Under the pieces are notes generated by a model. That model saw only the letters and a program-made list of their open reading frames with translations. It made no database searches and was not told where the DNA came from. A program made the position numbers and the translations under genes. This document shows, piece by piece, positions 6,783 to 24,700 of a stretch of DNA of 64,000 bases; within the stretch, counting starts at the first letter, position 1, and every line of letters begins with the position of its first letter. Origin of the DNA: a virus; IMG/VR virus record IMGVR_UViG_3300045988_061891. One strand, given 5' to 3'.

Positions 6783-7692
6783 CGTACTACTATAGTTTTC
6801 ACTACCAGATTACTCTGTTTGTAGTCTGGACTATGTCTTCACCCTTAGCTTTACCTATTAGGGTGCACCTGCATCTAGTCTCTGGGGCTGTAGCATTACC
6901 TACTATGCCTCCTCAAGTCAGTCAGTATTGTTTCCAATAAAGCCTTCGAGGATATTCAGGTGTAATAATATATTAGATTACTCTAATGCACGACATTGCA
7001 TATAATTCTTGTATTTAGTATTCTGCTTATTAGAGTTAATAGTTAAAGGAGGTAAATTTTCTAATCTGTATGAAAATCTATATCCCTTACATTGCTGATA
7101 TGTCCCATTAGTAACTCTACAAATACTAGACTCACTGATACCTAGTCTTCTAGCAGTATCTTTAAGCCCTAATGGATTCTCAAACAGCAATTTTCCCTCT
7201 AAATTATATACATATACTGTAACAGGATTAAAGTTCCATTCTAGTTTTCCTTCATTATGAAGTCTTCTTCTAGTGTCTCCTTGTTTTATCCTTGATTCTT
7301 TGGATAGAATATTTCTCTTAACTATTCTAGTTATGTTGTATTCTGCTCCAAATAAATCTATACAATATTGCTCTTTTTCTGTAAGATTGTCACAATCACA
7401 AAGTTCTAAGACAAACCATCTAAAATTACTCTCACCATACTTATCCCAAGCACTTTGCAAGTGAGGGTTCTGATGTTTATTATGCCTAAGTAAGGCAAAA
7501 TGTTTTAACAACCTTTGATATATGTTCTTTGAACTTCCTATATAGGTTTTGTGATTGATGATGTTCTCAATGCAGTATATACCAGATACTTTTAATTCCT
7601 TTGTAATCTTATTCATAATGTTTTATATTTTACTGCAAATATAAAACAAAATTTCCAAATATACAATAGAATAAATGAATTACTTAGCTTTT
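6783..7692 (-). mobile_element. group I self-splicing intron carrying a GIY-YIG homing endonuclease ORF
   Basis: Interrupts the helicase P-loop. The 3' 195 nt are GC-richer and contain R-like CAGAGACUAGAUGCAGG (6868-6886) and S-like GAAGACAUAGUCC (6828-6840) elements, giving P7 GACUA/UAGUC. The 5' exon ends in U and the intron ends in G. Confidence 0.7.
6978..7616 (-). CDS. GIY-YIG homing endonuclease (intron-encoded)
   Basis: SGIYCIENIINHKTYIGSSKNIYQRLLKH...SAWDKYGESNF...EKEQYCIDL matches the GIY-YIG, R and E/N motifs. The C-terminal region looks like an HTH DNA-binding domain. Confidence 0.8.
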   Translation of the reverse strand: MNKITKELKVSGIYCIENIINHKTYIGSSKNIYQRLLKHFALLRHNKHQNPHLQSAWDKYGESNFRWFVLELCDCDNLTEKEQYCIDLFGAEYNITRIVKRNILSKESRIKQGDTRRRLHNEGKLEWNFNPVTVYVYNLEGKLLFENPLGLKDTARRLGISESSICRVTNGTYQQCKGYRFSYRLENLPPLTINSNKQNTKYKNYMQCRALE

Positions 7693-9644: not shown

Positions 9645-10128
9645 TACTGTTTACAATCCGTTTAAGTTTATGAATATATTTAGGGTCTTCTGCATATCCT
9701 ACCCTCTGAAGAAAACTATAGTAGTCTTCAGGAGGTTTATATCTCTTTTGCACCCACTCCTTATATGCTATAACACTCTTTGTCCAGTGGTCAAATCTAT
9801 GGTACCTATTAGTCCTACTATTGTATAGACCAAACAGATTATTATGTCTCAAACATCCTACTGATGTAAAGTGTCCTGTCTCAAGCAGTGCCTGAGCATA
9901 CACTATATCAGGGTGAGTGACATCATAATATTTAAGGGCATCTGCTAAGCCCTCTTTCATAGGTTTGTCCATAAATACTGGGACAGGGGTTATAGTGTCA
10001 GGAGGTGAAGTAACATCATGATTGGGTGGTCCAGCTTTATCTTCAAATTGGTGTATGAAGATAATACCAGCTGTACATATCCCAATCATCAATGCTACTT
10101 TGATGAAGTTTTTGATTCTTTCTGTCAT
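9601..10128 (-). CDS. membrane-anchored N-acetylglucosaminidase (FlgJ/LytD-type glucosaminidase domain)
   Basis: N-terminal TM segment ALMIGICTAGIIFI, then AQALLETGHFTS...NNLFGL, characteristic of the glucosaminidase family. Confidence 0.6.
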   Translation of the reverse strand: MTERIKNFIKVALMIGICTAGIIFIHQFEDKAGPPNHDVTSPPDTITPVPVFMDKPMKEGLADALKYYDVTHPDIVYAQALLETGHFTSVGCLRHNNLFGLYNSRTNRYHRFDHWTKSVIAYKEWVQKRYKPPEDYYSFLQRVGYAEDPKYIHKLKRIVNSNDKRRSLEGSKGNS

Positions 10129-11282
10129 CTTAGTTGTTTGATGTTTGATTCAATACTATCATTGTAGTAGACATGGTCTGGTACATAGTGTAGATTATCC
10201 ACAAGAGTATCAAGAATTTTCTCTTTCCCATGGATATTGTAATGAGGGGAGCCTGAGTTGTCAAGGTAATCCCAGCTATATATGCTATACTCCTCATTAT
10301 CTATGATATGAGTCATATCCATATGTGTAACAACTAAGTTAAGAGATATATTGTACTTCTTCACATAGTTGTCTATACAGTGCCTTTCATAGGCTCTGTT
10401 AAGGAGACCCATCTCAAGGATACCTGTCTTGAAGTTTCCCTGAAACTCATTGTCTATGTTAGACTCATATTTATCAGTCAGTTTATTAGGCTCTCTGAGC
10501 CTGTGTTTAGGTTCATAGCCATTACCATGTCTGGTAGTGTAAGTCCTAGTGACAAGGTACACCTCTGCATCCTTAAGGACAGAACTTCTGAGACCATTAA
10601 GTCCCACTCTTGAAGGAGTTACATTGGGGTATAGTCCACAGTCCATGTCAAGAAGCAACCCCTGTGTTCCCTCAAATATAAGAACATTATAGTCCTTTAT
10701 TGAGGGCTTATCGGAATATACTTCTGTAAGAATCTCAAGACAGGATTTCTTAAACATATCATCATATTTAGGAATCCTCTCTATCTTGTGATAGTTTGAC
10801 GCGCACTTAAGGATATACTCAGGCTTGTCCAGACTGAAAGAGACTCTTGTCCACTGACCATGTTTATACCTCTCAAATGTAGGATATATACCCTTGCCAC
10901 AAGTTCCATCTGATATTACCTTGCTGTTGTTTCTTCCAGCAAGAACATCATAGGGTGTGATAATTCTATGTACACCACGGAATAGCTTTGGAGACACTCC
11001 TTTACACTGTAGAGTTCTGAACTCATTCATAAGACATATGGGGTCCATATATACCTCTTCTGTATACATAGTAGGTACACCAAGTAATACACCACTTCCA
11101 AAAGAGGAACAGATATGCTCTGTTCCCCCATTGAAAATAGTATGTGCTGCTTGGGGACCACCTGAGAATCTTACCACAAGTGGTTTCTTCCCTTCTTCAA
11201 TAGCCTTTTTGCAAAGCCACTGAACAGTCACCCCTTTTCCTTCATCGCCAAAGGTGTGACCCAACACTATTTTAACTTCCAT
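10125..11282 (-). CDS. adenylosuccinate synthetase family protein (PurA-like; PurZ-like cannot be excluded)
   Basis: N-terminal GHTFGDEGKGVTVQWL P-loop, GGPQAAHTI (GHT-type His) and TRHGNGY. At 385 aa it is shorter than typical bacterial PurA. Confidence 0.65.
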   Translation of the reverse strand: MEVKIVLGHTFGDEGKGVTVQWLCKKAIEEGKKPLVVRFSGGPQAAHTIFNGGTEHICSSFGSGVLLGVPTMYTEEVYMDPICLMNEFRTLQCKGVSPKLFRGVHRIITPYDVLAGRNNSKVISDGTCGKGIYPTFERYKHGQWTRVSFSLDKPEYILKCASNYHKIERIPKYDDMFKKSCLEILTEVYSDKPSIKDYNVLIFEGTQGLLLDMDCGLYPNVTPSRVGLNGLRSSVLKDAEVYLVTRTYTTRHGNGYEPKHRLREPNKLTDKYESNIDNEFQGNFKTGILEMGLLNRAYERHCIDNYVKKYNISLNLVVTHMDMTHIIDNEEYSIYSWDYLDNSGSPHYNIHGKEKILDTLVDNLHYVPDHVYYNDSIESNIKQLR

Positions 11283-11355
11283 TTATTATATCTTGAGTTC
11301 TTGAGGAGCCAAATCCCCAAGCAACTCAAGATAACACCTATAAACCAAACTATAA

Positions 11356-12144
11356 TCATTTTGTAATATTCTTAAACAGTGTAGGTACCTGACCATAGAC
11401 TGGAAGCTTACCATCCCACTTCTCAATCCACATTTTCTCAAGAATCTGAGGAGTAAGAGCCTGTTGTTTCAGTCTGTTAGCTTCTGCTTCTGCCTGTGCT
11501 GCCACAATAAGAGACTTGGCTTTTGCCTCTGCAACTTTTACTTCATTCTCAGCTGCTTGAGCCTGTTGAATCTTCTCATTTTTAGCATTTACAGCCTTTA
11601 CAATAGTCGCAGGGTATTTGAGACCAGAAGTAAGTTGTTCAAGCTGGAAGTTTTCTCTTAACAAAGCTGTAGTTAGATACTTCTCAATAGCATTCTCAAT
11701 AGAGTCCCTATTACTTACAATGTAGTCAGTAGTAAAGTTGTTGAGCTGGATTCTGAAGGCATCTTTCACATAGTTATAGAGGGTTCCATGGACTATTTCA
11801 TCCAGTTTCTTCCTGTACTTCTTGAATACAAGAGGAGACTTACCGTCTATAATCTTCAGTGATACGGTAGGGTCAACAGTGAACTCAGAACCATCTTTTG
11901 CATTAATGGTGAAGGGTTCGTAGTCAACAGTCTGCACAAAGGTAGGATACTCGTACACTGACTGGGTGAATGGGTTGTACCATACCATGCCAGTACACAT
12001 AGATACATCACCTACACCCTTGTCATCACCATAGAGATTAACAAGAATACCTTCGTGTCCTGCATCTATTTTCTCGCAAGAACTCATACCTACTATAGCC
12101 ATACAGGCTACAAACATTACAAGAATTTTTTTAATTGTTCTCAT
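11356..12144 (-). CDS. SPFH/band-7 (prohibitin/stomatin-like) lipoprotein
   Basis: Signal peptide with lipobox VGMSSC. SPFH-like core followed by an Ala/Glu-rich coiled coil AQAAENEVKVAEAKAKSLIVAAQAEAEANRLK. Confidence 0.55.
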   Translation of the reverse strand: MRTIKKILVMFVACMAIVGMSSCEKIDAGHEGILVNLYGDDKGVGDVSMCTGMVWYNPFTQSVYEYPTFVQTVDYEPFTINAKDGSEFTVDPTVSLKIIDGKSPLVFKKYRKKLDEIVHGTLYNYVKDAFRIQLNNFTTDYIVSNRDSIENAIEKYLTTALLRENFQLEQLTSGLKYPATIVKAVNAKNEKIQQAQAAENEVKVAEAKAKSLIVAAQAEAEANRLKQQALTPQILEKMWIEKWDGKLPVYGQVPTLFKNITK

Positions 12145-12334
12145 TTGATTTTTTATTAGTTAAACTTATTGATGTGAAACATTTCGTTTTGATGGACAGC
12201 AGAGAGTATAGAACCACTGCGATAATACCAACTATATTGGCGATTGTACTTGGTTTGGTCAACATACTACAAGCCCATGTAAATAGGATTATAGTGACTA
12301 TAAACCATACTGTGATAATTATTATTCTTTTCAT
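12131..12334 (-). CDS. small membrane protein
   Basis: 67 aa with two hydrophobic segments. Confidence 0.5.
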   Translation of the reverse strand: MKRIIIITVWFIVTIILFTWACSMLTKPSTIANIVGIIAVVLYSLLSIKTKCFTSISLTNKKSNENN

Positions 12335-12337
12335 AGC

Positions 12338-12520
12338 TTATATTTCAAATAAGTATTTGTATACTCTTCCTTCATAGTTTGCACCATTCCACTTGTTGTA
12401 CCATAGATACACTCTGTAGTGGTCAATAAGTACTACAACTTCTATCTCCGGTTGGTACCATCTCCACAATGGAAATACAACACAAAAGAAGAGTATAAGT
12501 ATTGAAAGTATTATATTCAT
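12338..12520 (-). CDS. small membrane protein
   Basis: 60 aa with an N-terminal TM segment. Confidence 0.45.
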   Translation of the reverse strand: MNIILSILILFFCVVFPLWRWYQPEIEVVVLIDHYRVYLWYNKWNGANYEGRVYKYLFEI

Positions 12521-12579
12521 AACTATGTATGTTAAGAAGAGGGGTTAAGCAGAAATTCTCTCACTTGACCCATCATAGC

Positions 12580-12993
12580 TTAATCATCAAGGATTTCATA
12601 GCTGTAAGATACAGCATGAAAGTCATGTGCTAATAGGTCAAAGTGCTTCTTCAACCTCTCATGTACTGACATAGTGTCCCAAACTCTCTCTATCACATCT
12701 CCATCCTTGTTTCTTTTTGTAGGCCTAGAGAGTTTGACAGAGGTAGGAGTTGAAAGCATATACTCATATGCTTCTTCACAGATGTTGAGTTTCTGAATGG
12801 CCAACTTCTGCTTTCTGGTACGGATAACCAGAGATTTCTCTCTCTCCTTCTGATGTTTACCTTTTCCTTTGGTGAATCTGATAAGCATCTTGTCCTCATT
12901 GTAGTTCTCTTTGGGTTTTTTATCACACTCCTGCGAGCTGAGCATATTTGCACCTGGTACAAAAAAGCTCAGACTTACTTTTAATTCTGTCAT
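12580..12993 (-). CDS. hypothetical basic protein
   Basis: 137-aa ORF immediately downstream of the RNA cluster. Confidence 0.55.
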   Translation of the reverse strand: MTELKVSLSFFVPGANMLSSQECDKKPKENYNEDKMLIRFTKGKGKHQKEREKSLVIRTRKQKLAIQKLNICEEAYEYMLSTPTSVKLSRPTKRNKDGDVIERVWDTMSVHERLKKHFDLLAHDFHAVSYSYEILDD

Positions 12994-13030
12994 AAAATTA
13001 ATATAAGGTGAATAAATGTTTTCTAAAAAT

Positions 13031-13139
13031 AGCTACTTAAGTGATACATTGACAGTGTATTGCATTAACCACTATGCTAATCATTCATGGCGAATAATAT
13101 AGGATTCGAACCTATGAAGTAATAGTATTGTAAGTAGCT
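13031..13139 (-). tRNA. circularly permuted tRNA-Asp(GUC)-like gene: the 3' half precedes the 5' half, bracketed by a 9-bp helix
   Basis: Minus strand reads AGCTACTTA-CAATACTATTACTTC-[ATAGG TTCGAAT CCTAT]-ATTATTC-G-CCA-T-[GAATGAT TA GCAT AGTGGTTA ATGC A ATACA CTGTCAA TGTAT]-CACT-TAAGTAGCT. The acceptor strands pair 7/7 (one G-U). The outer 9-mers are perfect complements. Confidence 0.6.
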
Positions 13140-13143
13140 GAAG

Positions 13144-13267
13144 TAAGGCAGAGAAGAATCGAACTTCTGTTATAGGGACCCATTTTATTAATATAATATA
13201 GTGTTGTAAGTATCTTTAGATACTATATATTTATTAACCTATGTCCTAACCACTAGACGACTGCCTT
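13144..13267 (-). ncRNA. tRNA-shaped RNA with the anticodon loop replaced by a 61-nt AU-rich hairpin
   Basis: Perfect acceptor AAGGCAG/CTGCCTT, D-arm GTCT AGTGGTTA GGAC, T-arm AGAAG TTCGATT CTTCT and stem ATAGG/CCTAT enclose 13177-13237. That insert contains the ACTTACAA box. Confidence 0.5.
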
Positions 13268-13287
13268 ATGAAATTGGCACTACTTTT

Positions 13288-13362
13288 TATGCACTGATGG
13301 AATTGAACCATCTCTAATTGTACCCAAATTACAATTGTCCTAACCAAGTAGACGAAACGCAG
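13288..13362 (-). tRNA. tRNA-Gln(UUG)
   Basis: Hand-folded cloverleaf: CTGCGTT TC GTCT ACTTGGTTA GGAC .. loop ATTTGGG .. GATGG TTCAATT CCATC AGTGCAT A. Confidence 0.7.
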
Positions 13363-13387
13363 AATTATTATTGTAAGTGCCAAAAAG

Positions 13388-13495
13388 TGGGGAAGGTAGG
13401 AGTCGAACCTACATTGAATAATTTAAAAGATTATTGCTTATTTATATGATATTGTAAGTACCATTAGATACTATGTCCGTTTTAGCTACTTCCCC
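13388..13495 (-). tRNA. tRNA-Lys(UUU)-like gene interrupted by a 34-nt insert between the D-arm and the anticodon arm
   Basis: GGGGAAG TA GCTA AAACGGACA TAGT A [insert 13435-13468] ATAAT CTTTTAA ATTAT TCAAT GTAGG TTCGACT CCTAC CTTCCCC A. The insert folds as ATGGTA-CTTACAA-TATCAT. Confidence 0.55.
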
Positions 13496-13512
13496 TTGTG
13501 TAGTCACTATTT

Positions 13513-13586
13513 ATGTACATGTTAGAATCGAACTAACTACCCTTGAATTACCAGTTCAATGCTCTAACCAAATGAGCTAATGTTAT
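13513..13586 (-). tRNA. tRNA-Thr(GGU), acceptor stem unpaired at 1-3:70-72
   Basis: TA GCTC ATTTGGTTA GAGC A TTGAA CTGGTAA TTCAA GGGTA GTTAG TTCGATT CTAAC. The acceptor ATAACAT/ATGTACA pairs only at positions 4-7. Confidence 0.55.
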
Positions 13587-13650
13587 TAGTATTGTAAGTG
13601 ACTTCATTCCAATTCTTCAATTGGACAATAATTTAACAAGCTTAAATTGC

Positions 13651-13774
13651 GCCTATCATAGGGATTCGAACCCACTTTTTACTGACCTCTTCATCTCATA
13701 CCTACCTAGGTCAGTATGAGATTGCACAGCTTTTGGAATTCTTAATATGTGCACTAATAAGAATTCATGATAGG
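13651..13774 (-). ncRNA. 124-nt tRNA-like RNA (acceptor-type terminal helix plus T-loop, expanded body)
   Basis: CCTATCA...TGATAGG is a perfect 7-bp terminal helix. T-loop GGGTTCGAATCCC. 9-bp hairpin GAATTCTTA/TAAGAATTC. Interleaved complements ATCTCATAC/GTATGAGAT and CTGACCT/AGGTCAG. Confidence 0.4.
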
Positions 13775-13783
13775 CCTTAGTAA

Positions 13784-13810
13784 GTATAGGAGGCATCACT
13801 CCTCCTATAC
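13784..13810 (-). other. 10-bp stem-loop (GTATAGGAGG / CCTCCTATAC) running into a TACTTACTAAGG box
   Basis: Perfect inverted repeat with a 7-nt loop and no U-tract. It lies between the vWA gene and the 124-nt RNA. Confidence 0.5.
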
Positions 13811-13816
13811 CTTTAT

Positions 13817-13876
13817 TGATACTTAATAGCATTGATATTAACTTTTAAATGAGCTATAAAAATGTTGTAAGTATCA
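13817..13876 (-). other. ACTTACAA-box unit: 9-bp bracket helix TGATACTTA / TAAGTATCA enclosing a 42-nt segment
   Basis: Same architecture as the brackets around the tRNAs, but the enclosed sequence has only an ATAGC/GCTAT hairpin. Confidence 0.4.
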
Positions 13877-13891
13877 TTGGCTTTTGAACTA

Positions 13892-15715
13892 TTAAAGCAC
13901 GTTTTCTCTTACTATATCATATCTATTACTCCTAAATAATGATTGTAAAGGAGTATAGACATCCATAATATCCATATCTTTGAAGTTAGTTAAGAACTGT
14001 TCAATCTGCGCTACATTAGCAGGGATATAAATCATGTTCTCAATACCTTCAAATCTGTCGATAGAAGCACTATTGAAACCCCAACCACCATCTACATCAA
14101 TAGCTACAATATATGGCTTAAATCCAAAGTATCTTTGACACTTCATCATAAAGGCATTCATTGAAGCCTCAGGAGACTTTAATGAGTTCCACTCACCATC
14201 GCTGATGATAGTCCATACAGGATAGTTCTTTAGAGCATCAAGTATCTGAGGATTATTCTGACATTCTTTGTGCAAATCATCAGGTATGTTACTGATGTAA
14301 GTACAACCACCTTGGAATACTGCCTTACAGAAGCTCTTGATAGATTGATAGTTCTCATAGAAACTCTTCTTAGGGTCAACAAAAGGAGTTTGCTTGGTTT
14401 TTACTGTTTCACTTCTGATGAAAGAGTTTACAGAGTTATTCTTTCTGTCTATACAAGTATGCCAGTGACTTCTACTATTGAAGAAACCAAGTAAGTTTCT
14501 ACCATCATCATCTGGATTCTTACATAGACATACAGAAGCTAAGAATGTAGCAAAGTTAAAGGGACTACCGCCCATAGAGCCCGAATCATCTATAATCACA
14601 AGACTATTATAAGGAAGATTAACCTTAGTCATGAATGTTTCAAGCTTTAATTTATCTACATTATCACAACAGATGTCATTATATAGCTCTTTGAAGTTAG
14701 TTGCTCCTACAGTAACTTTAGCCTGCTTTGCAACTTTCTTCAACTTGATTTTATCTTCCTCTGTAGCCTGTCCCTGTCTAACCTTTTCTTCTAGAACTCT
14801 TTGTTCAGCTTGCTTAGATTCCTTGTATTTCTCCCATTCAGCAAGCCAAGGCTGGAACTTAGAATATTTAGCTTCTTCAGTATCTTTAATTTTACTGTAA
14901 AGAATTCTGTTCTTAACTCTAAATCTTGCTTGTGAAGGAAGCTTGTCAAACCAATCAATAAATGATTGTTCGTCAAACTCATTGATTTTACCTGTAGAGA
15001 ACAGTACTGACTCGAGGTCACCATTATAATCCTTTCTCCATTTCCTGTAGCCTTTGAAGTTTGCATAGTTTTCGCTTACTTCATACTCCCAACCCATAAG
15101 CTCTGAGAGCATTATGAGTAACTTGACCTTATCTTCCATTACCTTTTTAGTTTCAGGAAGCATCTTTTTATGATTGCTTCTTTTACTTACTCTAGGAAGT
15201 GTCAAGAATTTAGCAACAAGAGTTTTATTGAAAGGATTATTACTGTTGATAACCTTATAGAGGTAGTTTACAATAACCTCTCTGTATTTTGCTTCAGCAA
15301 AGAGATTGTGTATTCTGGTAACTCTAGAACCCTTTGTCTGTACTCTATTTCTAAACAGTAAGTCAAAGCAAGTATATTCATTGAACAAACCTGCTTCAAG
15401 GAACTTCACAAATTGAGTTTGACGTTTCTTCCACATCCACTCAAGGACTACTTGAAAACCTTCTCTATTGGCATTACCACCACTATCCTTCTTAATACCC
15501 TTAAAGATATTATGTTGTCTAGCTGTAATATCACCAATTGAGAAAAGTAAACTAAAGAACATTTGCTTATGCTCCTTATTCCATCGAACTTCTGACCAAC
15601 AAGCATCAAGTAATGCTGTGTCAATCGTGTTGCCTACACTCTGAAAGAGTTTAAGGCAATTCTTTAACCCATAAAAAGGATTATCGTTACTTTTATTTAA
15701 CTTTACCTGTACCAT
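13892..15715 (-). CDS. DUF2828-like helical domain plus von Willebrand factor A (vWA) domain protein
   Basis: 607 aa. MIDAS motif in VIIDDSGSMGG. The N-terminal ~370 aa are helical (NPFYGL...LLDACW...FSIGDITARQ...LEWMW), resembling DUF2828-type proteins (family name recalled, not searched). Confidence 0.65.
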   Translation of the reverse strand: MVQVKLNKSNDNPFYGLKNCLKLFQSVGNTIDTALLDACWSEVRWNKEHKQMFFSLLFSIGDITARQHNIFKGIKKDSGGNANREGFQVVLEWMWKKRQTQFVKFLEAGLFNEYTCFDLLFRNRVQTKGSRVTRIHNLFAEAKYREVIVNYLYKVINSNNPFNKTLVAKFLTLPRVSKRSNHKKMLPETKKVMEDKVKLLIMLSELMGWEYEVSENYANFKGYRKWRKDYNGDLESVLFSTGKINEFDEQSFIDWFDKLPSQARFRVKNRILYSKIKDTEEAKYSKFQPWLAEWEKYKESKQAEQRVLEEKVRQGQATEEDKIKLKKVAKQAKVTVGATNFKELYNDICCDNVDKLKLETFMTKVNLPYNSLVIIDDSGSMGGSPFNFATFLASVCLCKNPDDDGRNLLGFFNSRSHWHTCIDRKNNSVNSFIRSETVKTKQTPFVDPKKSFYENYQSIKSFCKAVFQGGCTYISNIPDDLHKECQNNPQILDALKNYPVWTIISDGEWNSLKSPEASMNAFMMKCQRYFGFKPYIVAIDVDGGWGFNSASIDRFEGIENMIYIPANVAQIEQFLTNFKDMDIMDVYTPLQSLFRSNRYDIVRENVL

Positions 15716-15737
15716 TTGCTAATGTTTTATTTTATTT

Positions 15738-15745
15738 TTGTAAGT
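15738..15745 (-). promoter_or_regulatory. ACTTACAA box about 20 nt upstream of the vWA gene start (candidate promoter element)
   Basis: Minus strand reads CGTTACTTACAAAAATAAAATAAAACATTAGCAAATG. The same 8-mer occurs 6 more times in 13128-13872. Confidence 0.35.
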
Positions 15746-15800
15746 AACGTAGTTAGGATATTCTTTTTATCTTTGAACTATATATGTCTTCCTTATACTA

Positions 15801-16241
15801 CTAGAAAGTTTCAGTTTCACTCATTGCTGAAAGCTCTGCTTCAAGTTCCTTAATCTTATCCTCAGGAGTTTTCTGAGACTCTTTAAGTTCTTTAAGTTTG
15901 GCTATAAGTTCAGCTTTCTTTTGAGCGTTTTCTGCAACTTCCATTTTGTATCTCTTATAACCTATTACTAGGTTTACGAGTTCTTTATACTCTTTAGCAG
16001 TATCTAACTGCTTTGCAGTAGAGCTACTTGCAACCCACTCATCTTGACTTTCAAGTTGTTTAATCCTGTTAGACAAAGCAAGCCTGATACTATTAAGAGA
16101 GTTTATTGTAGTACCATGAAGTAACTCAACTACATTGATAGGTGTGCCAAGCTTAGTATGTACTGTATTGTTATCAAGTAACATAATAAGCAGCAATGAA
16201 CACATCTTATCAAAGTGTTCTTTTGTGAAATTAATTGTCAT
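15801..16241 (-). CDS. hypothetical protein (C-terminal coiled coil)
   Basis: 146-aa ORF. Confidence 0.6.
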   Translation of the reverse strand: MTINFTKEHFDKMCSLLLIMLLDNNTVHTKLGTPINVVELLHGTTINSLNSIRLALSNRIKQLESQDEWVASSSTAKQLDTAKEYKELVNLVIGYKRYKMEVAENAQKKAELIAKLKELKESQKTPEDKIKELEAELSAMSETETF

Positions 16242-16252
16242 AGTTCTTTAAT

Positions 16253-16879
16253 TTAATAAGTTATAATTGCAAAATCTTCTAGGTCACCATATTTAGCTTC
16301 AGTAATGAGCATACCGAAGCATCTTCCGAAGTGTTCCGCAATTTCCCTAGATGCGCAGCCTAAGAATCCAACATGGCTAGTAGCACAGCCTACTCCATCC
16401 CTAGAATCAAAGTCACCTACGCCATCAAAAATACTAAAAGAAATAGAACCACCAAAAACGTTATATAGAATTCCTTTATTCTTGATTTTACCTATTATCT
16501 CCATTCTATTTGCTTTAATCATATTACTATAATAAGTACAATCTTCAATTGCAAATTGATTGTCAGGATACCACATGGAAGAACCTTTTGTAAGATATAA
16601 ACCTTGTCCCAAATTAAGTGCTTTTCTGATGATGTTCAACTTAAACATAGCAGCAGATGCTCTACTAAATGTGGCTATATTTCTGGCGGTAATGTTTGCA
16701 GCAATATAATCGTAATTAAGAGCAACACAAGCATCTTTGAATGTTTTAATGTTCTTAAAGTTGTATACTAACTCATCTTTGTTGAAGGCTTGAAGTGCAA
16801 TCTCTTTAAGAGATTCATTTCCACTGTTATACCACTCTTTAGCCTTATCAAGAGTGACAGTTACATTTCTTTTTTCCAT
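16253..16879 (-). CDS. hypothetical protein, paralog of 20272..20943
   Basis: MEKRNVTVTLDKAKEWYNSGNESLKEIALQAF... aligns along its length with MEKRSITITIKKAREWYNSGNEALKEAALQAF... Confidence 0.7.
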   Translation of the reverse strand: MEKRNVTVTLDKAKEWYNSGNESLKEIALQAFNKDELVYNFKNIKTFKDACVALNYDYIAANITARNIATFSRASAAMFKLNIIRKALNLGQGLYLTKGSSMWYPDNQFAIEDCTYYSNMIKANRMEIIGKIKNKGILYNVFGGSISFSIFDGVGDFDSRDGVGCATSHVGFLGCASREIAEHFGRCFGMLITEAKYGDLEDFAIITY

Positions 16880-17014
16880 ATATTTCTATTTTAATTATGT
16901 AATGTATTAGTAGCTTCTCCTTTGATATAGTTACCTCTTTTTTCACAGAGTTTAGCTACACAATATTTACATTCTCTAGTACAATCAAAGTATTCCATAT
17001 ACAAGTTTCATATT

Positions 17015-17200
17015 TTATTCCCAAATATATGCTTCAAACTCGCATTTAAGTTCCATCTCAGTCTGTTTAGCCTCTTCAAGATATATACTTAAAAAGAGTG
17101 AACAATCATTGAAGTTATTAATGTCTCCATCAAACTCAATATATAACCATAGTTCACAGTACTTTACTGCGGACCGTTGCTTTTCAGTTGACTTTCTCAT
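17015..17200 (-). CDS. hypothetical small protein
   Basis: 61-aa ORF overlapping the upstream gene's stop (ATGA-type junction). Confidence 0.45.
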   Translation of the reverse strand: MRKSTEKQRSAVKYCELWLYIEFDGDINNFNDCSLFLSIYLEEAKQTEMELKCEFEAYIWE

Positions 17201-17493
17201 ATATTTAGGAATTTTTTAATTTTATACCAAATACTAACTCTCTTTTTCTCTATTATACCTTTATTTTTTCTGTTTCTAACAATGCCTTTGGGACCTACTG
17301 TTAAAAAGCTTGCACCTGCATTGTTATCAGTAGAAGTTAGTATATAATACCAGTGGTATAGACATGCCCCTATAGTTCTGTTGATTTTAGATGAGGCTTG
17401 TCTACAGGCTTCCTTGATATTAAGAGGATTAGCTTGAATAGCCTGGACTAGAATTGTTTCTTCCTCTTTAGTCCATCTTCTTCTTGTTGTCAT
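17197..17493 (-). CDS. Myb/SANT-like DNA-binding protein
   Basis: RRRWTKEEETILVQAIQANP...CLYHWYYIL fits the SANT/Myb W-x-EE...W pattern. Confidence 0.5.
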   Translation of the reverse strand: MTTRRRWTKEEETILVQAIQANPLNIKEACRQASSKINRTIGACLYHWYYILTSTDNNAGASFLTVGPKGIVRNRKNKGIIEKKRVSIWYKIKKFLNI

Positions 17494-17523
17494 TTCATTA
17501 TTATTTTTAGTTTAAATGATTAG

Positions 17524-17608
17524 TACCTCCAGTGGGATTTGAACCCACACAGCTACAATAGCCAAGGGAGTTTAAGTCCCTCATGTCTACCAATTCCATC
17601 ATAGAGGC
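17524..17608 (-). tRNA. tRNA-Leu(UAA), type II
   Basis: GCCTCTA TG ATGGAATTGGTAGACAT .. loop CTTAAAC .. long variable arm .. GTGGG TTCAAAT CCCAC TGGAGGT A. Confidence 0.75.
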
Positions 17609-17695
17609 AAATAATACTACTAAACGCAAAAAGGCTTATTATATCCTTTCATTGCTTTTACAGAATACGTCTGTACCTATATAGTAGTATTGTAG

Positions 17696-17768
17696 TGCAT
17701 CCAGTGAGATTCGAACTCACAACTTACAGTTTAGAAGACTGTTACTCTGTCCATTGAGTTATGGATGC
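17696..17768 (-). tRNA. tRNA-Arg(UCU)
   Basis: GCATCCA TA ACTC AATGGA.. ACAGT CTTCTAA ACTGT .. GTGAG TTCGAAT CTCAC TGGATGC A. Confidence 0.75.
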
Positions 17769-17794
17769 CCTTAGTTATGTATATATCTCATAAC

Positions 17795-18004
17795 TTAAAC
17801 AGATTGAAAATCTTTGGTTATATCTTCATCACTTTGTGAAATATACTCATAATAAGTTTTTTTATTAAAGAGAGGGTCGTTTAGAGCTTCTTTAAAAGAC
17901 TCCCATTCATCAACATAATGACATGCTAAAGCTGTTGCAAAAGCTCTATCTCTAAGTAGGTTAGCTAATTTTTCTTCTGATATAAGTTTCATTTTCTTAC
18001 TCAT
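17795..18004 (-). CDS. hypothetical small protein
   Basis: 69-aa ORF. Confidence 0.5.
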   Translation of the reverse strand: MSKKMKLISEEKLANLLRDRAFATALACHYVDEWESFKEALNDPLFNKKTYYEYISQSDEDITKDFQSV

Positions 18005-18010
18005 TTTAGA

Positions 18011-18601
18011 TTACAAGAAAGCCTCGTTATAAAGATTTACAAATTGCTTGCCAAATTGCTCTGCACGCTCAGGTGTCTTAAAACAAAGTCGAGAACCGAA
18101 ATTATACGCATTTGTGGGTGTGTTAAAAGTATTCATAAACACGAACCCCGCAGTATTCTTGTCATAATCGAACCAAGGAATCCATTTGTCTTGACGCCGA
18201 TTCGAGAAATCTGGAACAAAATTATCTTCCTTGTTCCACGCTTCTGCGATGGTAAACAGTTTGTTCAAGGCAATCAACGCTTCAATGTGCTTAGGGTTGA
18301 TGTCGGTCACAAGTCTTTTGACAACTCCAGACCTGGGAATGTATCCTACATTGGGTTTCATTCCAAGTGCTTCTCTTGCACTCTCAAAATCCGTAATGAC
18401 TTCATTTACATCTTTAACATCTACTTCTTCAAGAGTGAAATCAAACAACAATAAATAGTTATTATCTCCAATATGCAAAAATTCATTATGGATGCGAATA
18501 TACCACATCAAGAAGTCTCCAGCTTCTTCACGTGAATTAAACTCACCTTTAATATCAGGACACGTACTTCCATTTGCATACTTAATTATATACTTTTTCA
18601 T
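18011..18601 (-). CDS. hypothetical protein
   Basis: 196-aa ORF. Confidence 0.6.
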   Translation of the reverse strand: MKKYIIKYANGSTCPDIKGEFNSREEAGDFLMWYIRIHNEFLHIGDNNYLLLFDFTLEEVDVKDVNEVITDFESAREALGMKPNVGYIPRSGVVKRLVTDINPKHIEALIALNKLFTIAEAWNKEDNFVPDFSNRRQDKWIPWFDYDKNTAGFVFMNTFNTPTNAYNFGSRLCFKTPERAEQFGKQFVNLYNEAFL

Positions 18602-18804
18602 TACTTATCGATTTCTGATTTAATAGATTCTACATATTTAACTATTCTCGCATATTCACGGCCGCTTCTACTATTGTCAGCATAAGCTCTTCTAATAAGC
18701 TCTTCTCCAGTACCAAGAAAACAACCAACTTTCCACATATTCCAGAGTTTCCTCTGAAAACTTGTATTTCTTTTCCATATTTTACTCTGTTTATACAAAA
18801 TCAA
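18601..18804 (-). CDS. hypothetical small protein
   Basis: 67-aa ORF; its stop overlaps the next start. Confidence 0.45.
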   Translation of the reverse strand: MILYKQSKIWKRNTSFQRKLWNMWKVGCFLGTGEELIRRAYADNSRSGREYARIVKYVESIKSEIDK

Positions 18805-19381
18805 ATAAGTTAAGTTTCTCTTTCATTCTAAGCTTGTTCTTCTTATTCATCCTAAGTGCATATAAGAATGGCATTATCTTCTCATACCATCTTGCGTCTT
18901 TTGCCATAGAACTTACCCATTGGTTATTTAGATTATCTGGAACATCAGTTTTGAATGTATAGAGTTTCTTCCAGTCCCCTTTACGGTTGCCACCAATGAA
19001 TTTGAGTTTTGGATAACACATTTCAAAAGTTTTACACATTTTAGCGAATTGTCTACATTCTGATTCAGAGTTCCATTTTTCAAGTATAATTCTTACATAC
19101 ATATCATCTTTGGTAAAGTCTGTAAAATCGCGTATATTGCGAACTATTTTATGTATATCAACACATGACTTAAAATTAATCAATCCATGGGCAAATTCCC
19201 ACTGTTTTGATTTGACGTTGAAATAAATGCGCAAATCAAATACTCTTGCTCCATTCTTGAATTGCTCTTCAATATTATGGTTTTGACATCTTGCGGAAAG
19301 CAAGCCTGGAAACAACCACCAATTTTTAATCGGCAAATATGTCATTGTATTATGACTGCCATATACTATTTGTTCATTCAT
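18791..19381 (-). CDS. PI-PLC X-domain-like phosphodiesterase (tentative)
   Basis: YGSHNTMTY...ARCQNHNIEEQFKNGARVFDLRIYF...WEFAHGL resembles the catalytic His/Arg pattern of PLC-like TIM-barrel phosphodiesterases. Confidence 0.45.
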   Translation of the reverse strand: MNEQIVYGSHNTMTYLPIKNWWLFPGLLSARCQNHNIEEQFKNGARVFDLRIYFNVKSKQWEFAHGLINFKSCVDIHKIVRNIRDFTDFTKDDMYVRIILEKWNSESECRQFAKMCKTFEMCYPKLKFIGGNRKGDWKKLYTFKTDVPDNLNNQWVSSMAKDARWYEKIMPFLYALRMNKKNKLRMKEKLNLFDFV

Positions 19382-19401
19382 AATATTTATTATTGATTAA
19401 G

Positions 19402-19475
19402 TGGGCCTATAGAGATTTGAACTCTAAACCTTCACATTATGAGTGTGCTGCTCTAACCACTTGAGCTATAGGCCC
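19402..19475 (-). tRNA. tRNA-Met or Ile2 (anticodon CAU)
   Basis: GGGCCTA TA GCTC AAGTGGTTA GAGC A GCACA CTCATAA TGTGA .. TAGAG TTCAAAT CTCTA TAGGCCC A. Confidence 0.75.
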
Positions 19476-19487
19476 TAAAAGATTCTT

Positions 19488-19718: not shown

Positions 19719-19748
19719 TGTTAATTGTTTTAAGTTTTAAATTGTTTG

Positions 19749-19820
19749 TACCCTCAGATGGACTCGAACCATCATTTAGAGTTTAGGAAACTCTTGTTCT
19801 ATCCCTTGAACTATGAGGGC
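19749..19820 (-). tRNA. tRNA-Arg(CCU)
   Basis: GCCCTCA TA GTTC AAGGGATA GAAC A AGAGT TTCCTAA ACTCT .. GATGG TTCGAGT CCATC TGAGGGT A. Confidence 0.75.
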
Positions 19821-24415: not shown

Positions 24416-24417
24416 CT

Positions 24418-24694: not shown

Positions 24695-24700
24695 CTATAT

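What the first reader, a model, noticed from the sequence alone, without database searches (positions are those of the whole stretch)
13388..13495. tRNA-Lys(UUU) body interrupted by a 34-nt insert that folds into a Val(UAC)-like anticodon stem-loop
A perfect acceptor (GGGGAAG/CUUCCCC), D-arm, Lys anticodon arm (AUAAU CUUUUAA AUUAU), variable loop and T-arm are all present. However, 34 nt (13435-13468) sit between position 26 and the anticodon stem. The insert forms a 6-bp hairpin AUGGUA-CUUACAA-UAUCAU whose 7-nt loop reads as a UAC (Val) anticodon loop. Valine is the only amino acid for which I found no conventional tRNA in this window. The RNA could be an intron-containing tRNA at a non-canonical site. 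It could also be a two-anticodon-arm chimera, a tRNA-Val with the Lys-like hairpin as a long variable arm, or a disrupted pseudogene.
Basis: seen in the sequence. Interest (0 to 1): 0.7.

Follow-up and report, generated by a model that had tools for sequence, protein, structure and literature searches.

The report
tRNA mimic carrying a shared module
The "interrupted tRNA" is one of a row of tRNA-shaped RNAs in a crAss-like gut phage that all carry the same short hairpin-plus-ACUUACAA module and lie directly behind a gene for a distant Ro60-like protein, so it is most likely a phage Y-RNA-type tRNA mimic, not a split tRNA-Lys/Val.

Summary
The sequence features are real. On the minus strand, 13495-13388 has a perfect 7-bp acceptor stem, a T-arm and a Lys(UUU) anticodon arm, interrupted by about 33 nt. 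The interpretation changes. The "Val anticodon loop" CUUACAA is one copy of a motif (GnY-ACUUACAA-UAyUA) that occurs seven times on this strand within 0.9 kb, and once across the start codon of the upstream 607-aa gene. In 27 related crAss-like phage loci the motif always follows a 6-9-bp helix. The Val-like hairpin is not conserved (57.7% paired, no compensatory change). The acceptor stem across the insert is conserved (5 of 7 pairs compensatory). D-stem covariation places the module inside the D-loop, not at 26/27. Neighbouring units carry the same module in the anticodon loop, outside the acceptor ends, or joining a circularly permuted tRNA-like body, which is the known YrlA (bacterial Y RNA) topology. 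The upstream protein has no Pfam hit. However, it has an invariant MIDAS vWA domain that aligns to the Ro60 vWA domain (hhalign 83%), and its best full-length structural match in the PDB is D. radiodurans Rsr (E=3.7e-5, low TM-score). Best reading (about 0.55): Y-RNA-like tRNA mimics bound by a divergent Ro60-like protein. Main rival (about 0.2): the module is an excised intron or processing signal.

The parts
13388..13495 (-). Unit c, the finding: a 108-nt tRNA-shaped RNA with the module in its D-loop
   Evidence: Sequence. The MFE fold shows acceptor + module hairpin + anticodon arm + T-arm, z=-2.7. There are 12 close and several distant orthologs.
13489..13495 (-). Acceptor 5' strand GGGGAAG, pairing with 13389-13395 (CUUCCCC); discriminator A at 13388
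   Evidence: 7/7 pairs here. Across 13 relatives, 5 of 7 pairs show changes on both sides and 97.8% of cells are paired.
13483..13486 (-). D-stem 5' strand GCUA; its partner is AAGC at 13436-13439, downstream of the module
Evidence: GCUA/AAGC, GUUA/UAAC, GAAA/UUUC and UUUA/UAAA in different relatives. The linker length was fitted.
13457..13472 (-). Module hairpin AGUAUC-UAAU-GGUACU
   Evidence: Predicted in the MFE fold. 98.7% paired in relatives, with U-A changed to U-G here and one double change. Helix positions are partly sequence-conserved: G at -3 in 89% of instances and Y at -1.
13452..13459 (-). Core motif ACUUACAA.
   Evidence: 12 copies in the window against 4.8 expected. Consensus GnYACUUACAAUAyUA from 111 distinct instances.
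13440..13456 (-). Single-stranded A/U-rich tail of the module (UACAAUAUCAUAUAAAU)
   Evidence: The tail is 13-20 nt in all units. The first ~10 nt are conserved and the rest is variable.
13418..13434 (-). Anticodon arm AUAAU-CUUUUAA-AUUAU (UUU here)
   Evidence: The stem co-varies at 5 of 5 pairs. The anticodon differs among orthologs: UUU, CAU, GUC, UGG.
13396..13412 (-). T-arm GUAGG-UUCGACU-CCUAC
   Evidence: 100% paired with 3 of 5 pairs compensatory. GGUUCGA and G18/G19 are invariant.
13892..15715 (-). 607-aa gene directly upstream on the same strand: a helical N-domain plus a MIDAS vWA domain, read as a divergent Ro60/Rsr-like protein
   Evidence: No Pfam or PHROG hit. D376/S378/S380/T472/D506 are invariant. 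hhalign to the Ro60 vWA domain: 83%, E=9e-6. 4 of the top 5 PDB profile hits are TROVE/Ro60 proteins. The Foldseek top hit is 2nvo (Rsr), E=3.7e-5, the only full-length alignment, TM 0.30/0.34.
15685..15749 (-). Module copy in the gene's own leader: CGUUACUU (15749-15742) + ACAA..., pairing with AAGUAACG (15692-15685, codons 8-11). The helix encloses the start codon.
   Evidence: Present in 20 of 27 loci. L005 has the compensatory UGUUACUU/AAGUAACA. In L014 and L016 the partner has moved to +51. Fold.
13817..13876 (-). Unit a1: module helix UGAUACUUA/UAAGUAUCA enclosing 42 nt of non-tRNA sequence
   Evidence: The helix is kept in relatives while the enclosed body diverges.
13651..13811 (-). 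Unit a2: an 11-bp hairpin + ACUUACUA, followed by a ~125-nt structured RNA with an 8-bp terminal helix GCCUAUCA/UGAUAGGC and a degenerate T-arm
   Evidence: Present only in the window and L001.
13502..13603 (-). Unit b: module strand AGUCACU + tail, a tRNA-like body (GGU anticodon) with only a 4-bp acceptor, then partner AGUGACU
   Evidence: The Rfam tRNA match covers model positions 4-67 only. ACAU/AUGU, GCAU/AUGC and GUAU/AUAC co-vary. The helix co-varies as AGUUACUUA/UAAGUAACU in L005.
13274..13383 (-). Unit d: module strand UUGGCACU + tail, a tRNA-Gln-like body (13363-13287), then partner AGUGCCAA
   Evidence: UUGGUACU/AGUACCAA in L007-L009. The helix is kept where the body is replaced by non-tRNA sequence in L003, L005 and L007.
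13144..13267 (-). Unit e: tRNA-shaped RNA with a complete D-arm and the module (hairpin AGUAUCU/AGAUACU, 13224-13209) capping the anticodon stem
   Evidence: Rfam tRNA at 44.5 bits with a 61-nt insertion. ARAGORN intron mode calls Ile(aat) with a 54-nt insert at position 37. The stem co-varies: AUAGG/CCUAU against ACAGG/CCUGU. Fold.
13031..13139 (-). Unit f/g: a circularly permuted tRNA-like RNA in the YrlA topology. The order is module strand AGCUACUUA + tail, T-arm (13115-13099), 3' acceptor + GCCA (13098-13088), 5' acceptor (13086-13080), D-arm, anticodon arm, then partner UAAGUAGCU (13039-13031).
   Evidence: The MFE fold shows the 9-bp terminal helix, the T-arm and a closed 7-bp acceptor stem-loop. 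The permuted acceptor co-varies: GAAUGAU/AUUAUUC, AGAUGAU/AUUAUCU, GGAUGAU/AUUAUUC. The anticodon arm is absent in L002.

Best explanation
WHAT IT IS:
- The element is a conserved tRNA-shaped non-coding RNA.
- Its 'insert' is a roughly 33-nt recognition module. The module is a 6-9-bp helix whose 3' strand ends in G-n-Y-A-C-U, followed by a single-stranded UACAAUAyUA... tail.
- In this RNA the module sits in the D-loop.

WHERE ELSE THE MODULE OCCURS (shown):
- It punctuates the whole 0.9-kb array downstream of a 607-aa gene.
- It also spans that gene's own start codon.
- Other array members carry it in the anticodon loop, outside the acceptor ends, or as the end-to-end stem of a circularly permuted tRNA-like RNA. 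That last arrangement is exactly the architecture of bacterial YrlA Y RNAs.

THE PROTEIN (partly shown):
- The 607-aa protein is a very divergent Ro60/Rsr-like protein, with a helical N-domain and a MIDAS vWA domain.

PROPOSED MECHANISM (inferred):
- The array is co-transcribed with the gene.
- The protein binds the module on each RNA, and on its own mRNA leader, which would give autoregulation.
- The module is retained, not spliced out.
- It is always placed at sites that leave the L-shaped tRNA core intact: the D-loop pocket, the anticodon loop, the variable region, or the termini.
- The tRNA-like body would then serve as a nuclease-resistant scaffold or tether. It would present the protein to tRNA-binding or RNA-decay factors of the host, as Y RNAs tether Ro60 to PNPase.
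For: - Module repetition and strand bias. On the gene's strand there are 107 copies in the 1.3 kb after the ORF (3.5 per kb) and 24 in the 100 nt before its start (8.9 per kb). Inside the ORFs the density is 0.04 per kb, and on the opposite strand 0.05 per kb, over 27 loci.
- Helix covariation between orthologs. Examples: AGUCACU/AGUGACU to AGUUACU/AGUAACU; UUGGCACU/AGUGCCAA to UUGGUACU/AGUACCAA; and the leader CGUUACUU/AAGUAACG to UGUUACUU/AAGUAACA.
- The helices persist where the enclosed body has degenerated to non-tRNA sequence.
- The acceptor, T, anticodon and distal D stems of the finding's family are maintained by compensatory change across the module.
- G18/G19 and the T-loop are invariant.
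- Interrupted units with 7/7 acceptor stems, and permuted units, occur with many different sequences across the loci.
- The permuted unit folds into the YrlA topology. This matches the description in Chen et al. 2014, PMC4201824, including a 7-bp acceptor like that of M. smegmatis YrlA.
- Protein evidence: invariant MIDAS residues; Pfam VWA above threshold in a distant member; hhalign 83% to the whole Ro60 vWA domain; TROVE/Ro60 proteins take 4 of the top 5 PDB profile hits; a pLDDT 88.6 model has D. radiodurans Rsr as its top and only full-length PDB match.
- Phage Ro60 homologs with adjacent Y-like RNAs are documented (PMC12135203).
- No RNA ligase, RtcB or PNK was found among the 20 larger ORFs scanned.
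Against: - The N-terminal domain shows no detectable sequence similarity to TROVE: Pfam gives no hit at E<=10, and hhalign aligns only the vWA domain.
- The Foldseek match to Rsr has low TM-scores (0.30/0.34). A first, poorer model did not find Ro60 at all.
- The known Ro-binding motif GNCGAA is absent, and no Rfam Y RNA family matches.
- Binding of the module by this protein is inferred only from position and from the leader copy.
- No known Y RNA carries its protein-binding module in a D-loop or anticodon loop while keeping a complete anticodon arm.
- The anchored-complement statistic for single helices is only modestly above background.
- The alignment used for the D-stem test was fitted.
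Confidence: 0.55

Rival explanations
1. The module is an intron or processing signal. An endonuclease, from the phage (perhaps the 607-aa protein itself) or from the host, recognises the helix + ACUUACAA. It cuts on both sides and a ligase joins the ends. Interrupted (c, e) and permuted (f/g) genes would then yield ordinary tRNAs, here tRNA-Lys(UUU). Flanked tRNAs (b, d) would be released from the polycistronic transcript. This is analogous in logic to archaeal and algal BHB processing of intron-containing, split and permuted tRNAs.
For: - The same element occurs inside tRNA bodies, at the junction of a permuted body and around whole bodies. That is the pattern BHB motifs show in archaea.
- Deleting the module in silico gives a sequence that ARAGORN calls tRNA-Lys.
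- Several units keep canonical 7-nt anticodon loops with U33 and a purine at 37.
- Unit e's insert lies at the canonical 37/38 position.
Against: - There is no BHB geometry: the hairpin is continuous and is followed by a 13-20-nt single strand.
- The 33-nt insert is too small for a group I intron, and no ribozyme or intron family matches in Rfam.
- No RNA ligase, RtcB or PNK was found in the scanned ORFs.
- Modules also enclose non-tRNA sequence and an mRNA start codon.
- Anticodon identity is not conserved between close orthologs, and some loops have 8-10 nt or are deleted.
- Unit b would still have only a 4-bp acceptor after release.
- A conventional tRNA-Lys(UUU) already exists.
Confidence: 0.2
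2. The motif is a DNA-level signal, either a phage promoter (TACAAT resembles a -10 box) or a recombination and cassette boundary. Its presence inside tRNA bodies would reflect insertion or recombination, not RNA function.
For: - The motif lies 8-13 nt upstream of tRNA-like bodies and about 25-30 nt upstream of the ORF start.
- Array content between motif copies differs among close relatives, with units gained, lost or replaced. This suggests recombination at the repeats.
Against: - The motif is absent from the other 60 kb of the window, including the 21-gene tRNA cluster at 23.9-27.7 kb, so it is not a general promoter.
- The strand upstream of the motif co-varies with a partner 35-125 nt downstream, including one inside a coding region. 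A promoter would not require that.
- Acceptor stems spanning the motif are maintained by compensatory change. The sequences on both sides must therefore sit in one functional RNA.
Confidence: 0.08
3. These are decaying tRNA pseudogenes invaded by a small repeated (MITE-like) element and have no function of their own.
For: - Several units are non-canonical. Examples are a 4-bp acceptor, 8-10-nt anticodon loops, degenerate bodies, and anticodons that switch between relatives.
Against: - Compensatory changes maintain the acceptor, D, anticodon and T stems and the module helices across phages whose flanking protein is only 50-65% identical.
- The T-loop and G18/G19 are invariant.
- The module is strictly strand-specific and tied to one gene.
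Confidence: 0.07
4. One reading: a dual-anticodon chimera, or a tRNA-Val(UAC) whose Lys-like hairpin is a long variable arm, supplying the Val tRNA missing from the window.
For: - The 6/6 hairpin with a canonical CUUACAA loop exists in this sequence.
- ARAGORN calls tRNA-Val if the Lys arm is removed.
- No tRNA-Val was found in the window.
Against: - The hairpin is absent in all but the 98%-identical relative. It is 57.7% paired with no compensatory change.
- It is not in the MFE fold.
- CUUACAA is an invariant linear motif that also occurs in unpaired contexts and in an mRNA leader.
- The Lys-type arm, not the Val-type hairpin, is the helix that co-varies.
Confidence: 0.03

Closest known systems
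Bacterial and phage YrlA-type Y RNAs with Ro60/Rsr (Chen et al. 2014, PMC4201824; Thermus phage phiLo phiRo60 with Yrl1/2, PMC12135203)
   Same: - Several small RNAs are encoded within 1 kb of, and on the same strand as, a protein with a helical domain plus a MIDAS vWA domain.
- At least one RNA (unit f/g) has its 5' and 3' ends paired in a stem. That stem carries a conserved 5'-strand motif and encloses a variable region, a T-arm, a closed 7-bp acceptor-like stem and a D-arm.
- The tRNA elbow nucleotides are conserved.
- The array contains multiple different RNAs.
- The system is phage-encoded.
   Different: - The protein has no detectable TROVE sequence signature.
- The conserved RNA motif is GnYACUUACAAUAyUA, not GNCGAA(N)G.
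- No Rfam Y RNA model matches.
- Most units, including the finding, keep the tRNA gene order and a full anticodon arm. They carry the module as a closed hairpin in the D-loop or anticodon loop, or outside the acceptor ends.
- A module copy spans the protein's own start codon.
- The lineage is Crassvirales.
BHB-dependent intron-containing, split and permuted tRNA genes (Archaea; Cyanidioschyzon merolae and other algae)
   Same: One shared structural element appears at non-canonical positions inside tRNA bodies, at the junction of a permuted tRNA-like gene (3' half upstream of 5' half), and flanking whole units.
   Different: - There is no bulge-helix-bulge geometry.
- The element is sequence-conserved and has a long single-stranded tail.
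- The setting is a bacterial virus with no splicing endonuclease or RNA ligase identified.
- Many bodies are not canonical tRNAs.
tRNA-scaffold and tRNA-like modules in other RNAs (tmRNA tRNA-like domain; viral tRNA-like structures)
   Same: The acceptor and T-arm core is kept while a foreign functional domain is inserted elsewhere. Rfam gives the finding a weak, sub-threshold tmRNA-type match of 13.2 bits.
   Different: There is no tag reading frame and no pseudoknots. The size is about 108 nt. The element is part of an array that shares one short module.

Membership tests
YrlA / bacterial Y RNA | Encoded within about 4 kb of a Ro60 (TROVE) gene and on the same strand | tested here: inconclusive
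   The array starts 20 nt after the stop codon of the 607-aa gene on the same strand, in 27 of 27 loci. The protein's Ro60 identity is only partly supported.
YrlA / bacterial Y RNA | 5' and 3' ends pair into a stem; tRNA-like domain with T-arm, closed acceptor-like stem and D-arm | tested here: met
   Met for unit f/g (13031-13139): see the fold and the covarying permuted acceptor. The finding's own unit c has the same parts in tRNA order, with the stem closed by a loop.
YrlA / bacterial Y RNA | Conserved Ro-binding motif GNCGAA(N0-1)G near the 5' end | tested here: not met
   The conserved motif is GnYACUUACAAUAyUA. CGAA occurs only in the T-loops.
YrlA / bacterial Y RNA | Match to a curated Y RNA covariance model | tested here: not met
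   cmscan against Rfam 15 at E<=10 over 12950-13920 and 11500-20500 returns only tRNA, plus sub-threshold tmRNA and chance hits.
YrlA / bacterial Y RNA | Bound by the Ro60 ortholog in vivo | not testable with these tools
   This needs RIP, CLIP or EMSA.
Ro60 / Rsr (TROVE + vWA) proteins | TROVE (HEAT-repeat ring) domain recognisable by sequence | tested here: not met
   No Pfam TROVE hit at E<=10 in the window protein, in 16 relatives, or in 10 distant members. hhalign aligns no N-terminal columns.
Ro60 / Rsr (TROVE + vWA) proteins | C-terminal vWA domain with a MIDAS motif | tested here: met
   D376, S378, S380, T472 and D506 are invariant in 47 diverse members. Pfam VWA scores 24.1 bits (cut-off 23.8) in P0363. 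hhalign to the Ro60-family vWA domain: 83%, E=9e-6, with our 369-575 aligned to human Ro60 369-534.
Ro60 / Rsr (TROVE + vWA) proteins | Overall fold: helical ring followed by vWA | tested here: inconclusive
   The model has pLDDT 88.6 and pTM 0.84. The Foldseek top PDB hit is 2nvo (D. radiodurans Rsr), E=3.7e-5, with 651 aligned columns. It is the only full-length hit, but TM is 0.30/0.34 and rmsd 14.9.
Canonical elongator tRNA (tRNA-Lys) | Uninterrupted cloverleaf recognised by tRNA finders | tested here: not met
   ARAGORN does not call it. Rfam tRNA gives only a partial 20.7-bit match, below the threshold of 29. It is called only after in-silico deletion.
Canonical elongator tRNA (tRNA-Lys) | Anticodon identity conserved among orthologs | tested here: not met
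   UUU in the window, L001 and L007. CAU in L002-L006 and L009-L011. GUC in L018. UGG in L021 and L019.
Intron-containing tRNA (BHB type or group I) | Bulge-helix-bulge at the exon-intron junctions, or a self-splicing group I core | tested here: not met
   The predicted and conserved structure is a plain 6-7-bp hairpin plus a single-stranded tail. The insert is 33 nt, and there is no Rfam intron hit.
Circularly permuted tRNA genes (C. merolae type) | 3' half upstream of 5' half, with leader and trailer pairing | tested here: met
   Met for unit f/g only. This does not apply to the finding's unit c, which is in normal order.
Circularly permuted tRNA genes (C. merolae type) | Circular intermediate and a ligated mature tRNA | not testable with these tools
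   This needs RNA-level data.

The most novel reading that the evidence does not exclude
The helix + ACUUACAA module may define a previously unknown, BHB-independent, protein-guided RNA cut-and-join system in a bacterial virus. Such a system would assemble functional tRNAs from interrupted genes (D-loop and anticodon-loop inserts) and from circularly permuted genes. The Ro60-like vWA protein would act as the recognition or chaperone subunit. This would be the first case of non-self-splicing tRNA introns and permuted tRNA genes outside Archaea and Eukarya.
Probability: 0.12. Interest if true: 0.9.

Novelty: new variant of a known kind. Interest (0 to 1): 0.62.

Why it matters
- crAss-like phages are among the most abundant viruses of the human gut, and much of their gene content is unannotated.
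- If this reading is right, a whole clade of them encodes a Ro60-like protein that current domain libraries miss. The family has 183 clusters at 50% identity.
- That protein would come with an array of five to seven tRNA-mimicking partner RNAs that use a new recognition motif.
- This would extend the Ro60-Y RNA system to Crassvirales.
- It would also show that a Y-RNA-type protein-binding module can be grafted onto different loops of a tRNA scaffold, in both permuted and unpermuted form.
- It would give a concrete handle on how these phages manipulate host RNA or tRNA metabolism: a 16-nt motif and one protein.
- On the practical side, such elements are mis-called or missed by tRNA finders and should not be counted as decoding tRNAs or suppressor tRNAs.

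Tried and rejected
1. **Val anticodon arm.** Rejected on conservation and folding.
2. **D-stem GCUA/UAGU with the insert at 26/27.** Rejected in favour of a D-loop insertion. The proximal partner shows no compensatory change and fails in the GAAA-type relatives.
3. **General phage promoter.** Rejected because the motif is confined to this locus, and because its upstream strand co-varies with a distant downstream partner.
4. **BHB or group I intron.** No such geometry, size or Rfam match.
5. **Ro60 homology by simple means.** These all failed:
   - Pfam and PHROGs.
   - phmmer and a shallow profile against the PDB.
   - The first AF2 model with Foldseek.
   - hhalign with shallow profiles.

   Only a 47-sequence diverse profile and the second model gave signals.
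6. **Single-helix complement statistic.** Random ACT anchors often find 7-bp partners in this A/T-rich DNA, so helix length alone is weak evidence. I rely on ortholog covariation and positional consistency instead.
7. **L019 tRNA-Ile(AAU).** I tested whether this uninterrupted tRNA is the intron-less ortholog of unit e. It is an ortholog of unit b instead.
8. **Literature searches.** I searched for permuted or interrupted tRNAs, Ro60 and Y RNAs in crAss-like phages and found nothing.
   - One fold call used the wrong coordinates.
   - One paper was not held.
Full report
**1. The observation**

The feature is on the minus strand. Reading 13495 down to 13388 gives:

`GGGGAAG UA GCUA AAACGGACAU AGUAUC UAAU GGUACU UACAAUAUCAUAUAAAU AAGC A AUAAU CUUUUAA AUUAU UCAAU GUAGG UUCGACU CCUAC CUUCCCC A`

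- ARAGORN finds 26 tRNA genes in the window covering 19 amino acids, with Val missing. It does not call this element.
- Rfam's tRNA model gives it only a partial 20.7-bit match.
Deleting the Lys arm instead gives tRNA-Val(tac).

**2. The 'Val loop' is a copy of a repeated motif**

- ACUUACAA occurs 12 times in the window against 4.8 expected.
- Counting one ACUUACUA variant, seven copies lie on the minus strand between 13128 and 13872. An eighth lies at 15745, 30 nt upstream of the start codon of the 607-aa ORF 13892-15715.
- The large tRNA cluster on the plus strand (23.9-27.7 kb) has none.
- The only similar deposited phage record is IAS virus, so the window is from a crAss-like phage.

**3. 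Relatives**

- The 607-aa protein retrieved 27 related loci from IMG/VR, at 98% down to 50% identity.
- In essentially all of them the motif is repeated at roughly tRNA-sized spacing immediately downstream of the ORF.
- The table gives same-strand densities over the 27 loci. The opposite strand carries 0.05 copies per kb.

| Region | Copies | Density per kb |
|---|---|---|
| 1.3 kb after the ORF | 107 | 3.5 |
| 100 nt before the ORF start | 24 | 8.9 |
| Inside the ORFs | 2 | 0.04 |

- From 111 distinct instances the consensus is G-n-Y-A-C-U-U-A-C-A-A-U-A-y-U-A, followed by an A/U-rich stretch.

**4. The module is a helix plus a single-stranded tail**

- The bases just 5' of the motif, together with its first three bases (X-ACU), are always complementary to a segment AGU-X'.
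- That partner lies either immediately upstream, forming a closed hairpin, or 35-125 nt downstream, beyond a tRNA-like body.
- Helix length alone is weak evidence in this A/T-rich DNA. Random ACT anchors give a median best helix of 7 bp.
- Orthologous units, however, show clean double substitutions:

| Unit | Common form | Variant |
|---|---|---|
| b | AGUCACU/AGUGACU | AGUUACUUA/UAAGUAACU (L005) |
| d | UUGGCACU/AGUGCCAA | UUGGUACU/AGUACCAA (L007-L009) |
| mRNA leader | CGUUACUU/AAGUAACG | UGUUACUU/AAGUAACA (L005) |

- In the leader the partner lies in codons 8-11 of the ORF. In L014 and L016 it has been replaced by a new partner at +51.
- The helices persist even where the enclosed body has degenerated to non-tRNA sequence.
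- Strand specificity, covariation, and a partner inside a coding region all indicate an RNA-level element.

**5. Anatomy of the finding's RNA**

- RNAfold on the window sequence predicts the acceptor stem, the hairpin AGUAUC-UAAU-GGUACU, a 6-bp Lys anticodon stem and the T-arm (-22.2 kcal/mol, z=-2.7). It does not predict the Val-like hairpin.
- I built a 13-sequence segment-wise alignment of orthologs and more distant family members and counted pairs on it:

| Helix | Pairs changed on both sides | Cells paired |
|---|---|---|
| Acceptor stem | 5 of 7 | 97.8% |
| T stem | 3 of 5 | 100% |
| Anticodon stem | 5 of 5 | 90.8% |
| Module hairpin | 1 of 6, largely invariant | 98.7% |
| Distal D-stem partner | 3 of 4 | 82.7% |

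- The proximal UAGU partner fails in the relatives whose 5' strand is GAAA.
- The strand just upstream of the anticodon stem co-varies with the D-stem 5' strand: GCUA/AAGC, GUUA/UAAC, GAAA/UUUC and UUUA/UAAA.
- Caveat: the 1-4-nt linker was chosen to maximise this pairing, so the alignment leans towards the distal model.
- The module (13472-13440) therefore sits inside the D-loop, 3' of the invariant G18-G19, and not at 26/27.
- The anticodon is not conserved: UUU, CAU, GUC and UGG occur. Some orthologs have 8-10-nt loops. A conventional tRNA-Lys(UUU) exists at 25644-25716.

**6. The rest of the array**

- **Unit b (13603-13502):** module strand, a 13-nt tail, a tRNA-like body with only a 4-bp covarying acceptor, then the partner strand. 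L019's 'tRNA-Ile(aat)' is its ortholog.
- **Unit d (13383-13274):** the same arrangement around a tRNA-Gln-like body.
- **Unit e (13267-13144):** a complete D-arm and a covarying anticodon stem capped by a ~54-61-nt insert that contains the module.
- **Unit f/g (13139-13031):** the order is module strand, tail, T-arm, 3' acceptor strand, GCCA, U, 5' acceptor strand, D-arm, anticodon arm, partner strand.
  - This is a circular permutation whose 7-bp acceptor co-varies between loci.
  - Its MFE fold shows the 9-bp terminal helix, the T-arm and the closed acceptor stem-loop.
  - In L002 the anticodon arm is absent.
- A census across the loci finds interrupted units with 7/7 acceptor stems of many different sequences, and permuted units in most loci.
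- The module always sits at sites that leave the tRNA L-shape intact: the D-loop, the anticodon loop, the variable region or the termini.

**7. Comparison with Y RNAs**

- The f/g topology is the one Chen et al. (2014, PMC4201824) describe for bacterial and phage YrlA Y RNAs.
  - A conserved motif near the 5' end lies in a stem formed with the 3' end.
  - This is followed by a variable region, a T-arm, a closed acceptor-like stem and a D-arm.
  - The RNA is encoded within 4 kb of Ro60/Rsr on the same strand.
- M. smegmatis YrlA even has a 7-bp acceptor that RNase P cuts and that receives CCA.
- Phage Ro60 homologs with adjacent Y-like RNAs are documented. A 2025 study of Thermus phage phiLo solved phiRo60 (PDB 9KOP and 9L5Y).

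**8. Is the 607-aa protein Ro60-like?**

*Negative results*
- Pfam and PHROGs give nothing. One database name is 'cobalamin biosynthesis protein'.
- A shallow profile and a first AF2 model (pLDDT 72) found only generic HEAT/ARM and vWA similarities.
- hhalign to Ro60 was negligible with shallow profiles. I had verified my human Ro60 sequence against the PDB.

*Positive results with a diverse profile*
- The family comprises 183 clusters at 50% identity.
- With a 47-sequence alignment, D376, S378, S380, T472 and D506 are invariant.
- A distant member passes Pfam's VWA threshold.
- hhalign aligns residues 369-575 to the entire vWA domain of a TROVE/Ro60 family profile at 83% probability, E=9e-6. 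The domain starts at the same residue number as in human Ro60.
- In an HMM search of the PDB, four of the top five hits are TROVE/Ro60 proteins, including the phage phiRo60. Their E-values are individually marginal, 0.015-0.45.
- The second AF2 model has pLDDT 88.6 and pTM 0.84. Its best PDB match is D. radiodurans Rsr (2nvo), E=3.7e-5.
- That is the only hit aligned over the full length. All other hits cover just the vWA domain.
- The TM-scores are low, at 0.30/0.34.

*Verdict.* The vWA domain is Ro60-like. The N-domain is helical and its best structural match is Ro, but TROVE homology is not demonstrated.

**9. Best explanation and rivals**

*Preferred reading (confidence about 0.55).* The array encodes Y-RNA-like tRNA mimics. 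Each carries a binding module for the upstream Ro60-like protein, and a further copy on the protein's own leader would allow autoregulation.
- Shown: the module, its helices, its distribution, the maintained tRNA-like bodies, the YrlA-like permuted member and the Ro60-like vWA domain.
- Inferred: binding by this protein, retention of the module in the mature RNA, and the downstream function as a scaffold or tether to host tRNA or RNA-decay factors.

*Main rival (about 0.2).* The module marks excision and ligation sites, giving real tRNAs from interrupted and permuted genes.
- For it: the parallel with BHB logic, and ARAGORN's tRNA-Lys call after deletion.
- Against it:
  - No BHB geometry.
  - No ligase or endonuclease among the ORFs scanned.
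  - Modules occur around non-tRNA sequence and around a start codon.
  - Anticodons are unstable between orthologs.
  - Unit b has only a 4-bp acceptor.

*Minor rivals.* Promoter or recombination-site, pseudogene and Val/dual-anticodon readings are each below 0.1, for the reasons given under the rival explanations.

**10. Novelty**

- Ro60-Y RNA systems, including phage ones, are known.
- I found nothing on them, or on interrupted or permuted tRNA-like genes, in crAss-like phages in the searchable literature.
- The system differs from described Y RNAs in four respects:
  - the protein's undetectable TROVE signature;
  - the recognition motif;
  - the placement of the module in D- or anticodon loops of tRNA-order molecules;
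  - the leader copy.
- I class it as a new variant of a known kind, pending RNA-level and binding data.

Noticed in passing
window 24324-24416 (+): ARAGORN reports a 93-nt 'tRNA-???' with a 4-base anticodon (ggaa). It has acceptor GGAAGUU/AACUUCC, an 8-nt anticodon loop UUGGAAAA and a long variable arm. Rfam's tRNA model does not report it, nor the ARAGORN Ser(gct) at 24607-24695 or the Met at 27623-27693.
   Followed up: partly
window 13287-13363 (-) and orthologs in L002, L006, L011: The tRNA-Gln-like body of unit d has a 6-bp anticodon stem or 9-nt loop here. It has an 8-nt loop that ARAGORN calls 'tttg' in L002 and L011, and a normal 7-nt UUG loop in L006. Anticodon-loop length is therefore unstable between close relatives.
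   Followed up: partly
unit f/g orthologs: window 13044-13060; L003, L005, L011, L002: The same permuted tRNA-like body carries anticodon GUC here, GUU in L003, GAU in L005 and UCA (opal-suppressor-like) in L011. It has lost the whole anticodon arm in L002.
   Followed up: partly
window 13651-13811 (-): This is a ~125-nt structured RNA preceded by an 11-bp hairpin and an ACUUACUA variant. It has an 8-bp terminal helix, a GAAUUC/GAAUUC hairpin and a degenerate T-arm. It is present only in the window and L001. Other relatives have a short 'AGACACU...AGUGUCU' unit at this place, which in L011 encloses a tRNA-Lys(ttt).
   Followed up: partly
L022, L025, L026 (ORF homolog matches end at residue ~506-515): In these loci the protein match stops about 100 residues early, and the motif array begins about 1.5 kb further downstream. 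This suggests an insertion, perhaps an intron, intein or extra gene, near the 3' end of the gene.
   Followed up: no
L019 ds 526-661 (unit GGGGAGG/CCUCCCC): This D-loop-module unit has an additional 8-bp hairpin (GCAGUAUU-CAUU-AAUACUGU) in the D-loop, upstream of the module. The D-loop evidently tolerates further insertions.
   Followed up: no
L018 ds 875-983: In this ortholog the module's 3' strand and loop (UCUGUUUAGUUACUU) can alternatively pair over 15 bp (4 G-U) with the 5' acceptor/D-arm region (GAGUAGUUAAACGGA). This could be a conformational switch or could be chance.
   Followed up: no
window 6978-7616 (-): This ORF has GIY-YIG and NUMOD-like domains, so it is probably a homing endonuclease. 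It lies among replication genes: Toprim primase, AAA_24 and an SNF2-type helicase.
   Followed up: no
window 10125-12144 (-): Adenylosuccinate-synthetase-like and SPFH/Band 7 (prohibitin-like) genes lie just downstream of the array. The SPFH gene is the only stretch with nucleotide similarity to a deposited phage, IAS virus at 73%.
   Followed up: no
window tRNA genes, opposite strand (for example 19401-19475 +): Rfam 'Plastid-ycf2 5UTR' matches appear antisense to many tRNA genes, all below the family's threshold. They look like an artefact of that model resembling an antisense tRNA.
   Followed up: no
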